A DNA stretch of 526 nucleotides from a phage. The DNA is taken from the sequence record EF517084.1, one strand, 5' to 3'. Positions 2 to 526 of this stretch are shown in pieces. Position 1 is the stretch's first letter; every line of letters starts with the position of its first letter. The notes below the pieces were generated by a model that had not been told where the DNA came from, did no database searches, and worked only from the letters and a program-made list of their open reading frames with translations. The translations under genes were made by a program, and so were the position numbers.

Positions 2-238
2 GAAGGGACTCGTCCGGTTAAACAGGTTGCTGGCGGTCTAGCTGGTTTGGCTAGTGGTACTGGTGAAGCACAGATGGTGGTAGTACCACAAGCTGCCGCA
101 CAGATTGTTGACGTACCTGAGAAAGAGGTTTCCACTGAGGACGAAGCACAGACAGAAAGCGGACACAAAAAAGCTCGTGCTGGCGGTAAGAAATTCTTGA
201 GTGTAACCCGTAGCTCCGGTGACGGTATCAACATTTAA
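2..238 (+). CDS. 7.3: 3' end of a gp7.3-like virion/tail-associated protein gene of a T7-like phage (5' end lies upstream of the window)
   Basis: Frame 2 is open from position 2 with no upstream stop, ending at TAA 236-238. Translation: EGTRPVKQVAGGLAGLASGTGEAQMVVVPQAAAQIVDVPEKEVSTEDEAQTESGHKKARAGGKKFLSVTRSSGDGINI. The ORF-track start at 47 is a TTG inside this frame, so the reported 63-aa ORF is a truncation artefact. The sequence closely resembles the C-terminus of T7 gp7.3 as I remember it (not checked), and it sits directly upstream of an HNH endonuclease gene as in T7. Confidence 0.8.
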   Translation, partial: EGTRPVKQVAGGLAGLASGTGEAQMVVVPQAAAQIVDVPEKEVSTEDEAQTESGHKKARAGGKKFLSVTRSSGDGINI

Positions 239-240
239 TC

Positions 241-246
241 AGGAGG
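241..246 (+). promoter_or_regulatory. Shine-Dalgarno ribosome-binding site (AGGAGG) for the downstream HNH endonuclease gene
   Basis: Perfect AGGAGG at 241-246, followed by a 5-nt spacer (ttatc) and GTG at 252. It lies 2 nt after the TAA stop of the upstream gene. Confidence 0.65.
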
Positions 247-251
247 TTATC

Positions 252-526
252 GTGGAAAACTGCATTGAATGGACCGGAAGTGTCAACTCTAAGGGTTATG
301 GTCGTAAGTGAATTAATGATAAACTTGTGACTCCACATAGGCATATCTATGAGGAAACATATGGTCCAGTTCCAACAAGAATTGTGGTGATGCATATCTG
401 CGATAACCCTAGGTGCTATAACATAAAGCACCTTACGCTTGGAACTCCAAAGGATAATTTCGAGGACATGGTTACCAAAGGTAGACAGGCTAAAAGAGAG
501 GAACTAAGCAAGAAACTTACAGAGTC
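252..526 (+). pseudogene. 7.7: HNH homing endonuclease gene (T7 gp7.7-like), interrupted by an in-frame TGA at 309-311; 3' end beyond the window
   Basis: GTG 252 with SD. Translation: VENCIEWTGSVNSKGYGRK*, then the same frame stays open to the window end: INDKLVTPHRHIYEETYGPVPTRIVVMHICDNPRCYNIKHLTLGTPKDNFEDMVTKGRQAKREELSKKLTE. The GYGR motif upstream of the stop and the HRH...HICDNPRCYNIKHL...DN core downstream are typical of phage HNH_3-type endonucleases. The single stop falls between two conserved blocks, with no frameshift. Not in the ORF track because the frame is split by the stop and runs off the window. Confidence 0.7.

What the first reader, a model, noticed from the sequence alone, without database searches (positions are those of the whole stretch)
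309..311. In-frame opal (TGA) stop at codon 20 of the HNH endonuclease gene
Reading from GTG 252, codon 20 (309-311) is TGA. The upstream 19 codons carry the conserved GYGRK block and the downstream codons carry the HNH catalytic and zinc-binding block, all in the same frame. This is a nonsense lesion in an otherwise intact gene, not a frameshift or decayed remnant. It could be a recently inactivated selfish endonuclease, a lab or induced mutation, a sequencing error, or a site of low-level readthrough.
Basis: partly seen in the sequence, partly recalled or inferred. Interest (0 to 1): 0.6.

Follow-up and report, generated by a model that had tools for sequence, protein, structure and literature searches.

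The report
Mutagen-type stop codon in T7 gene 7.7
The stop codon is real, but it is one of 19 chemical-mutagen-type base changes in a heavily mutated copy of phage T7, and it knocks out a dispensable selfish nuclease gene, which is an ordinary and already documented outcome.

Summary
Reading from GTG 252, codon 20 (309-311) is TGA, where wild-type T7 and five natural relatives have TGG (Trp).

The window is T7 19597-20122: the end of gene 7.3 plus the first 91 codons of HNH endonuclease gene 7.7. It has no indels and 19 substitutions (3.6%) relative to wild-type T7, which is the closest sequence found in any collection searched.

- **Spectrum:** 18 of the 19 substitutions are G>A or C>T, and 15 of those 18 lie at 5'-purine-G sites.
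- **Coding effect:** the silent, missense and nonsense proportions match what unselected GC>AT hits would give.
- **Precedent:** the sequenced T7 isolate K (AY264775) shows the same signature, but none of its substitutions is shared with the window. From memory only, K is a nitrosoguanidine/bottleneck line.
- **Chance:** at this mutation load, the chance of at least one nonsense codon in the window is about 52%.

The gene is not "otherwise intact". It carries 7 further missense changes, including G43R at a family-invariant glycine. Gene 7.7 can be deleted from viable T7. Nothing points to recoding: there is no Rfam hit and no significant hairpin, and no relative has TGA here.

Verdict: a by-product of GC>AT hypermutation in a T7 derivative, most likely a laboratory-mutagenised line. 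This is already known biology and of low interest.

The parts
2..238 (+). 3' part of T7 gene 7.3 (codons 22-99 plus TAA at 236-238), a tail/host-range protein required for infectivity. It carries 9 substitutions, 7 of them missense: A24T, G39S, E48V, R76H, S86F, A90T and G95D.
   Evidence: The alignment with 12 natural homologues shows R76, A90 and G95 identical in all of them.
241..246 (+). Shine-Dalgarno AGGAGG of gene 7.7, 5 nt upstream of the GTG start. Unchanged from wild-type T7.
252..311 (+). Truncated gene 7.7 reading frame: GTG start, 19 sense codons and the opal stop. It contains family-invariant C4, G15 and Y16, plus substitutions D3N and G10S.
309..311 (+). TGA stop, derived from TGG (Trp20) by G>A at 311.
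311..312 (+). Tandem GG>AA double substitution (W20stop plus V21I). Both bases lie in 5'-purine-G context.
   Evidence: The chance of at least one adjacent pair at this load is 0.42.
312..526 (+). Untranslated remainder of gene 7.7 (codons 21-91 of 130), in frame with the start. It carries V21I, G23D, G43R, S70F and G82R plus two silent changes.
336..461 (+). HNH_3 (His-Me finger) domain, residues 29-70 of T7 gp7.7, holding most of the family-invariant residues: H29, H48, C50, C55, N57, H60 and N69. All of these are retained in the window.
   Evidence: The nearest solved structure is I-HmuI, 1U3E.
378..380 (+). AGA (Arg) replacing GGA (Gly43), a glycine invariant across the family. This is a probable second inactivating lesion.

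Best explanation
The window is a piece of a bacteriophage T7 derivative that has taken a very heavy load of GC>AT transitions of the kind made by alkylating mutagens such as nitrosoguanidine. One of these transitions (G>A at 311) turned Trp20 (TGG) of gene 7.7 into an opal stop. Translation from GTG 252 therefore ends after a 19-residue peptide, and the HNH nuclease domain (residues 29-70) is not made. Gene 7.7 is a dispensable, free-standing homing-type endonuclease gene, so the stop is tolerated and persists by drift or bottlenecking. It has no function of its own. What is shown: the identity of the locus, the ancestral codon, the mutation spectrum and its sequence context, the absence of purifying selection in the window, the dispensability of 7.7, and the matching signature in the sequenced T7 isolate K (which, from my memory, is a mutagenised line). 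What is inferred: that this particular sequence comes from a laboratory mutagenesis or bottleneck lineage, since no provenance record was found, and that the truncated or restarted products are inactive.
For: 1. Locus identity. The best match in 50,697 phage records is wild-type T7 at 96.4% over 526/526 bases with no gaps. No record matches better.
2. Spectrum. The 19 differences are 14 G>A, 4 C>T and 1 A>T. In natural divergence at the same locus (T7 vs Bas102), GC>AT makes up 28 of 85 differences. P(at least 18 of 19) under that fraction is 3e-8.
3. Context. 15 of 18 GC>AT changes lie at 5'-purine-G sites, against a background of 56% (p = 0.016).
4. Positive control. T7 isolate K (AY264775) differs from wild type over 3.5 kb by 34 substitutions: 23 G>A, 7 C>T, 3 A>G and 1 T>C. 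26 of its 30 GC>AT changes lie at purine-G sites (p = 1e-4). Its G>A:C>T ratio is indistinguishable from the window's (23:7 vs 14:4). It reaches up to 13 substitutions per 526 nt.
5. No purifying selection in the window. Observed GC>AT effects are 13 missense, 1 nonsense and 4 silent. The neutral expectation is 67% missense, 4% nonsense, 26% silent and 2% intergenic. Density is equal in 7.3 (9 in 238 nt) and 7.7 (10 in 275 nt). Silent versus non-silent changes differ from the natural control (Fisher p = 0.0035).
6. Dispensability. T7 with 2.8 and 7.7 deleted was isolated, as was the triple homing-endonuclease deletion (bioRxiv 10.1101/2025.09.07.674715). T7 clone T7_290S lacks 7.7. Many T7-like phages match only gene 7.3 at this locus.
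7. Published precedent. T7 passaged with nitrosoguanidine evolved 11 nonsense codons, all GC>AT (Cunningham et al. 1997, as summarised in PMC5850294).
8. P(at least one stop in this window at this load) = 0.52.
Against: The density (3.6%) is about 4 times isolate K's local average (0.96%) and exceeds its local maximum of 13 per 526 nt, so the lineage would have to be more heavily mutated than the sequenced examples. Gene 7.3 is required for infectivity, yet it carries three changes at residues identical in 12 natural homologues (R76H, A90T, G95D). This raises doubt about whether this exact genome is viable, although K also changes G95 and E48. None of the 19 substitutions is shared with K, K115, P or P82. 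Exact 30-41-mers spanning the TGA are absent from IMG/VR, JGI metagenomes and GTDB genomes, so the provenance is unproven. The purine-G context test on the window alone is only modestly significant.
Confidence: 0.78

Rival explanations
1. The DNA was never a replicating phage lineage. It could be an in-vitro or in-vivo random-mutagenesis clone, a non-viable genome from a lethal-mutagenesis population, or a sequence mutated in silico. The stop would still be a passive by-product of GC>AT hits.
For: There is no sign of purifying selection, even in gene 7.3. The density is higher than in the sequenced viable isolate K. No public collection holds the sequence.
Against: The purine-G context and the plus-strand G>A excess match a real T7 isolate that I recall to be mutagenised, which a naive simulation would not reproduce. 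K115 stays viable with 7 amino-acid changes in gp7.3. The only non-GC>AT change (E48V) falls on a codon that is also substituted in K, which hints at selection in culture.
Confidence: 0.1
2. The A at 311 is a base-call, PCR or DNA-damage (cytosine deamination) artefact, and the real phage has TGG.
For: It is a single-base change and no read data are available. Deamination artefacts are also GC>AT.
Against: It would have to be one of 18 like errors in 526 bases with no indels. The purine-G context bias fits O6-alkylguanine mutagenesis, not deamination: the 5' neighbour of the affected C shows no TC or CC preference (p = 0.26 and 0.53). The same signature occurs in an independently sequenced complete genome.
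Confidence: 0.07
3. Natural pseudogenisation: a wild T7 relative in which the selfish homing endonuclease has started to decay after fixation.
For: Free-standing HNH genes are patchily distributed and often lost. Many T7-like phages lack 7.7 at this site.
Against: Natural relatives differ by mixed substitution types, mostly silent (37 silent vs 24 non-silent codons; GC>AT only 33%). Here 95% are GC>AT and mostly missense, including in gene 7.3. The nearest sequence is the laboratory T7 reference itself.
Confidence: 0.03
4. The UGA is decoded: programmed or tolerated read-through by tRNA-Trp (which would restore the wild-type residue), selenocysteine insertion, or a TGA=Trp genetic code. The gene would then still be expressed, perhaps at a throttled level.
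For: The stop sits exactly on a Trp codon. From general knowledge, near-cognate reading of UGA by E. coli tRNA-Trp occurs at a low level and would insert Trp. The next base is A (UGA-A), which is not the strongest termination context.
Against: All relatives have TGG. The other Trp codon in the window (W7, 270-272) is still TGG. There is no Rfam hit. The RNA after the stop folds no better than shuffles (z = -0.96), so there is no SECIS-like element. Even a read-through product carries G43R at an invariant glycine plus 6 other missense changes. W20 itself is not conserved across the wider family.
Confidence: 0.02

Closest known systems
T7 isolates K, K115, P and P82 (GenBank AY264775-AY264778). 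From my own memory, not verified here, these are the nitrosoguanidine-mutagenised, bottlenecked lines of Bull et al. 2003, J Mol Evol 57:241; one search confirms only that paper's citation.
   Same: They have a wild-type T7 backbone without indels in this region. They show the same GC>AT dominance (30 of 34 in K), the same purine-G context (26 of 30) and the same plus-strand G>A excess. Missense changes accumulate in gp7.3 (codons E48 and G95 are hit in both) and in gene 7.7, where K has an SD mutation plus T8A, G17D, Y33C, G38D and D68N.
   Different: No substitution is shared. The window has 19 changes per 526 nt, against 9-10 in K/K115 and 3 in P/P82. Those isolates keep 7.7 open, while the window has a stop.
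Parallel nonsense mutations in T7 passaged with nitrosoguanidine (Cunningham et al. 1997, Mol Biol Evol 14:113, as summarised in PMC5850294)
   Same: Nonsense codons arose by GC>AT transitions in a mutagenised T7.
   Different: Which genes those 11 nonsense codons affected could not be read here, and I did not see a 7.7 W20 opal reported. Those events were interpreted as adaptive or parallel. Nothing here shows that the 7.7 stop was selected.
T7 gp7.7 / I-HmuI-like HNH (Pfam HNH_3) free-standing phage homing endonucleases
   Same: Same gene, same start and same domain order. The HNH_3 match is retained in the conceptual translation. The profile hits I-HmuI, PDB 1U3E.
   Different: The reading frame is interrupted at codon 20 and an invariant glycine is replaced, so this copy is best called a pseudogene allele.

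Membership tests
T7 gene 7.7 / HNH_3 homing-type endonuclease | Sequence match to Pfam HNH_3 above the gathering score | tested here: met
   46.0-46.8 bits against a cut-off of 24.8, on the window's conceptual translation.
T7 gene 7.7 / HNH_3 homing-type endonuclease | Family-invariant His/Asn/Cys residues retained (H29, H48, C50, C55, N57, H60, N69, C4) | tested here: met
   All are present in the window translation when compared with the invariant columns of the 12-sequence alignment.
T7 gene 7.7 / HNH_3 homing-type endonuclease | All family-invariant residues retained | tested here: not met
   G43, invariant in 12 of 12 homologues, is Arg in the window.
T7 gene 7.7 / HNH_3 homing-type endonuclease | Uninterrupted reading frame from the conserved start | tested here: not met
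   TGA at codon 20. Downstream in-frame starts (GTG 327, ATG 390) have no Shine-Dalgarno sequence and would remove C4, G15 and Y16.
T7 gene 7.7 / HNH_3 homing-type endonuclease | Endonuclease or homing activity | not testable with these tools
   Requires biochemistry or mixed-infection crosses.
Alkylating-agent (nitrosoguanidine-type) mutagenised T7 lineage | Substitutions overwhelmingly GC>AT relative to wild-type T7, with no indels | tested here: met
   18 of 19 substitutions and 0 indels. P = 3e-8 against the natural spectrum.
Alkylating-agent (nitrosoguanidine-type) mutagenised T7 lineage | Preference for G preceded by a purine | tested here: met
   15 of 18 against a 56% background, p = 0.016. 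Isolate K as control: 26 of 30, p = 1e-4.
Alkylating-agent (nitrosoguanidine-type) mutagenised T7 lineage | Missense changes outnumber silent changes (relaxed selection under bottlenecks) | tested here: met
   14 non-silent GC>AT changes plus E48V against 4 silent, which matches the neutral expectation.
Alkylating-agent (nitrosoguanidine-type) mutagenised T7 lineage | Shares derived substitutions with a sequenced mutagenised line | tested here: not met
   No substitution is shared with K, K115, P or P82. If the window comes from such an experiment, it is an independent line.
Alkylating-agent (nitrosoguanidine-type) mutagenised T7 lineage | Documented provenance (record or paper naming the lineage and treatment) | not testable with these tools
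   The sequence is absent from all collections searched. The key papers are not held.
Programmed UGA recoding (selenocysteine or read-through) | TGA conserved at the site in relatives | tested here: not met
   TGG in T7, phiA1122, Bas102 and two IMG/VR contigs.
Programmed UGA recoding (selenocysteine or read-through) | Stable stimulatory RNA structure just downstream of the UGA | tested here: not met
   MFE -14.7 kcal/mol, z = -0.96 against shuffles. No Rfam match at E <= 1.

The most novel reading that the evidence does not exclude
The GC>AT hypermutation is not from a laboratory chemical. It is the footprint of a natural process that damages phage DNA (for example a host DNA-alkylating or deaminating anti-phage activity). 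Alternatively, the UGA at a Trp codon is kept because tRNA-Trp read-through restores the wild-type residue and throttles a toxic homing endonuclease.
Probability: 0.03. Interest if true: 0.6.

Novelty: already known. Interest (0 to 1): 0.08.

Why it matters
It matters little biologically. GC>AT nonsense mutations and missense decay in T7 grown with nitrosoguanidine were described in the 1990s and 2000s, and gene 7.7 is known to be deletable. The practical value is for annotation. This 7.7 copy should be annotated as a pseudogene allele in a hypermutated T7 derivative. It should not be read as a recoding site or as an example of natural homing-endonuclease decay. The neighbouring gene 7.3 allele is unusually altered as well.

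Tried and rejected
- **Source hunt, all negative.** Exact 41-mer and 30-mer searches spanning the TGA found nothing in IMG/VR, JGI metagenomes or GTDB genomes. Megablast against plasmids and E. coli genomes found nothing. The exact look-up of the 30-aa ORF 219-311 found nothing. The protein search with the gp7.3 fragment found nothing closer than T7's own cluster, whose representative (the K115 variant) is 90% identical, and none of the cluster's members carries the window's changes.
- **Recoding.** Rfam gave no hit and folding of the RNA after the stop showed nothing significant. Rejected.
- **Deaminase-type signature.** The 5' neighbour of the mutated C shows no TC or CC enrichment. Rejected in favour of the purine-G (alkylation) context.
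- **Strand bias.** G>A versus C>T is 14:4, which is not significant once the G-rich coding strand is allowed for (p = 0.15). It is identical in ratio to isolate K.
- **Restart hypothesis.** The in-frame GTG 327 and ATG 390 lack Shine-Dalgarno sequences and would delete invariant residues.
- **Idea that W20 is essential.** W20 is conserved only among close relatives, not family-wide.
- **Papers not held.** Springman 2010 and Hahn 2002 could not be read. What I say about Hillis 1992, Bull 2003 and the purine-G preference of nitrosoguanidine beyond the cited snippets is from my own knowledge.
- **My error.** One row of alignment A5 was a mistyped junk sequence. Alignment A6 replaces it.
- **Tool issue.** Several loci were not copied to the Python sandbox, so those comparisons were done with the alignment tools instead.

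Full report
**Observation.** The window reads GTG at 252-254, preceded by AGGAGG at 241-246. Nineteen sense codons follow, then TGA at 309-311, and the same frame stays open to base 526. The upstream peptide contains the GYGRK block. Pfam HNH_3 matches residues 29-70 of T7 gp7.7 (29-69 in the window's own read-through translation), all downstream of the stop (46-50 bits against a cut-off of 24.8).

**Identity of the locus.** Megablast against 50,697 phage records gives wild-type T7 as the best match: 96.4% over all 526 bases with no gaps, at T7 19597-20122. This region covers the last 78 codons of gene 7.3, a 13-nt spacer, and the first 91 of 130 codons of gene 7.7, which is annotated as an HNH endonuclease. 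No record matches better than the T7 reference. Exact 30-41-mers spanning the TGA are absent from IMG/VR, JGI metagenomes and GTDB genomes. Plasmids and E. coli genomes give no match.

**What the differences are.** A base-by-base comparison with T7 gives 19 substitutions and no indels: 14 G>A, 4 C>T and 1 A>T.
- The stop is TGG>TGA (W20), caused by G>A at 311. The adjacent base 312 is also G>A (V21I).
- T7, phiA1122, Bas102 and two IMG/VR T7-like contigs all have TGG at this codon and start the gene at the same position.
- Gene 7.7 also carries D3N, G10S, V21I, G23D, G43R, S70F and G82R plus two silent changes.
- In a 12-sequence alignment reaching 35% identity, the invariant residues are C4, G15, Y16, H29, Y33, G43, H48, C50, C55, N57, H60, L61 and N69. 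G43R therefore hits an invariant glycine.
- W20 itself is conserved only in close relatives.
- The gene is therefore not "otherwise intact".

**The stop is part of a mutational signature.**
- At the same locus, natural divergence between T7 and Bas102 is 33% GC>AT, 26% AT>GC and 41% transversions, with 37 silent and 24 non-silent codon changes. Getting at least 18 of 19 GC>AT changes under that spectrum has P = 3e-8. The silent to non-silent ratio in the window (4:15) differs from the natural control (Fisher p = 0.0035).
- Among all 258 G/C sites in the window, a GC>AT change would be missense at 67%, silent at 26%, nonsense at 4% and intergenic at 2%. The observed figures are 72%, 22%, 6% and 0%. 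No purifying selection is visible.
- Density is the same in gene 7.3 (9 in 238 nt) and gene 7.7 (10 in 275 nt).
- 15 of 18 GC>AT changes sit at a G preceded by a purine, against a 56% background (p = 0.016). From my own knowledge, this is the classical site preference of nitrosoguanidine-type alkylation. A deaminase-type 5'-TC or 5'-CC preference is absent.

**Precedent.** The protein search with the gp7.3 fragment found nothing closer than T7's own gp7.3 cluster, whose representative is 90% identical. The members of that cluster include variants from GenBank AY264775-AY264778, which are T7 isolates K, K115, P and P82. [quoted passage not shown] 1992 (described in PMC2491900).
- Isolate K differs from wild type over 3.5 kb around this locus by 34 substitutions (0.96%): 23 G>A, 7 C>T, 3 A>G and 1 T>C. 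It has up to 13 substitutions per 526 nt.
- 26 of K's 30 GC>AT changes are at purine-G sites (p = 1e-4). Its G>A:C>T ratio is indistinguishable from the window's.
- In the window-equivalent stretch, K has 9 substitutions, K115 has 10, and P and P82 have 3 each. None is shared with the window.
- K also damages gene 7.7: AGGAGG>AAGAGG in the ribosome-binding site, plus T8A, G17D, Y33C, G38D and D68N. It changes the same gp7.3 codons E48 and G95 as the window.
- PMC5850294 summarises Cunningham et al. 1997: T7 passaged with nitrosoguanidine evolved 9 deletions and 11 nonsense codons, all of the nonsense codons GC>AT.
- PMC6042481 notes GC>AT domination after nitrosoguanidine or hydroxylamine mutagenesis of T7.

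**Is the stop more than chance?** No. The window has 10 sites where a GC>AT change creates a stop. With 18 random hits, P(at least one stop) = 0.52 and P(at least one adjacent pair) = 0.42. Four of the five nonsense targets in 7.7 are the G's of the two Trp codons, and two of those are at purine-G sites. All five targets in 7.3 are C's of CAA or CAG in the disfavoured context.

**Consequence and mechanism.**
- Translation from GTG 252 should release a 19-residue peptide.
- In-frame restarts exist at GTG 327 and ATG 390. Neither has a Shine-Dalgarno sequence, and the products would lack invariant C4, G15 and Y16, and from 390 also H29.
- The nearest solved relative is I-HmuI (1U3E). The profile alignment begins at the GY motif, so the stop lies inside the folded N-terminal nuclease domain.
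- Low-level reading of UGA by tRNA-Trp (general knowledge) would restore Trp. The product would still carry G43R and six other changes.
- There is no Rfam match and no significant hairpin after the stop.
- Gene 7.7 is dispensable. A T7 with 2.8 and 7.7 deleted and a triple homing-endonuclease deletion were isolated (10.1101/2025.09.07.674715). T7 clone T7_290S lacks the gene. Many T7-like phages match only gene 7.3 at this locus.
- In wild-type T7, gene 8 has its own GGAG upstream of an ATG that overlaps the 7.7 stop. A polar effect therefore need not be lethal. This is an inference and concerns sequence outside the window.

**Points that do not fit perfectly.** The 3.6% density is higher than anything seen in K. 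Gene 7.3 is required for infectivity (annotation), yet it has R76H, A90T and G95D at residues identical in 12 natural homologues, and S86F at a Ser/Ala position. The sequence might therefore come from a more extreme line, from a non-viable genome in a mutagenised population, or from an artificial mutagenesis. In all of these cases the stop is a passive by-product. Provenance could not be established with the tools available.

**Verdict.** The most likely explanation (0.78) is an alkylating-mutagen-type G>A nonsense mutation in a dispensable homing-endonuclease gene of a heavily mutagenised T7 derivative. This is a known phenomenon and of low interest.

Noticed in passing
window 2-235: The gene 7.3 fragment carries 7 missense changes in 78 codons. 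R76H, A90T and G95D fall in the C-terminal block (RKKARAGGKKSLSVARSSGGGINI), at residues identical in 12 natural homologues down to 66% identity.
   Followed up: yes
window 80-82 and 221-223; L039 (AY264775) equivalent: Codons E48 and G95 of gp7.3 are substituted both in the window (E48V, G95D) and, independently, in T7 isolates K and K115 (E48K, G95S). E48V (A>T at 81) is the only non-GC>AT change in the window. This may be parallel adaptation to laboratory passage.
   Followed up: partly
L039 3005-3397 (AY264775 gene 7.7): In isolate K, gene 7.7 stays open but has a weakened ribosome-binding site (AGGAGG>AAGAGG) and five missense changes, including G17D in the GYG motif and Y33C at an invariant Tyr. 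The gene therefore decays under mutagenesis in that line too.
   Followed up: partly
window 247-252 (boundary of homology): Many T7-like phages (for example 04922B, JeanTinguely, NC-A) match the window only up to about base 247, at the end of gene 7.3. Related HNH genes sit at other genome positions in other phages. This fits 7.7 being a mobile free-standing insertion between genes 7.3 and 8.
   Followed up: partly
L001 2131-2146 (T7 20227-20242, outside the window): The 7.7 stop TAA overlaps the gene 8 ATG (TAATG), and a GGAG lies 9 nt upstream inside 7.7. A premature stop in 7.7 could uncouple translation but need not abolish gene 8 expression.
   Followed up: no
protein P0047: A T7-type gp7.3 homologue is recorded as a hypothetical protein of Staphylococcus hyicus, and the longest contig on record for it is 78.7 kb. 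This is probably phage contamination or a misassigned contig.
   Followed up: no
window 228-431, minus strand: A 67-aa GTG-initiated ORF lies antisense to gene 7.7. It overlaps a well-supported gene and has no other support, so it is treated as spurious.
   Followed up: no
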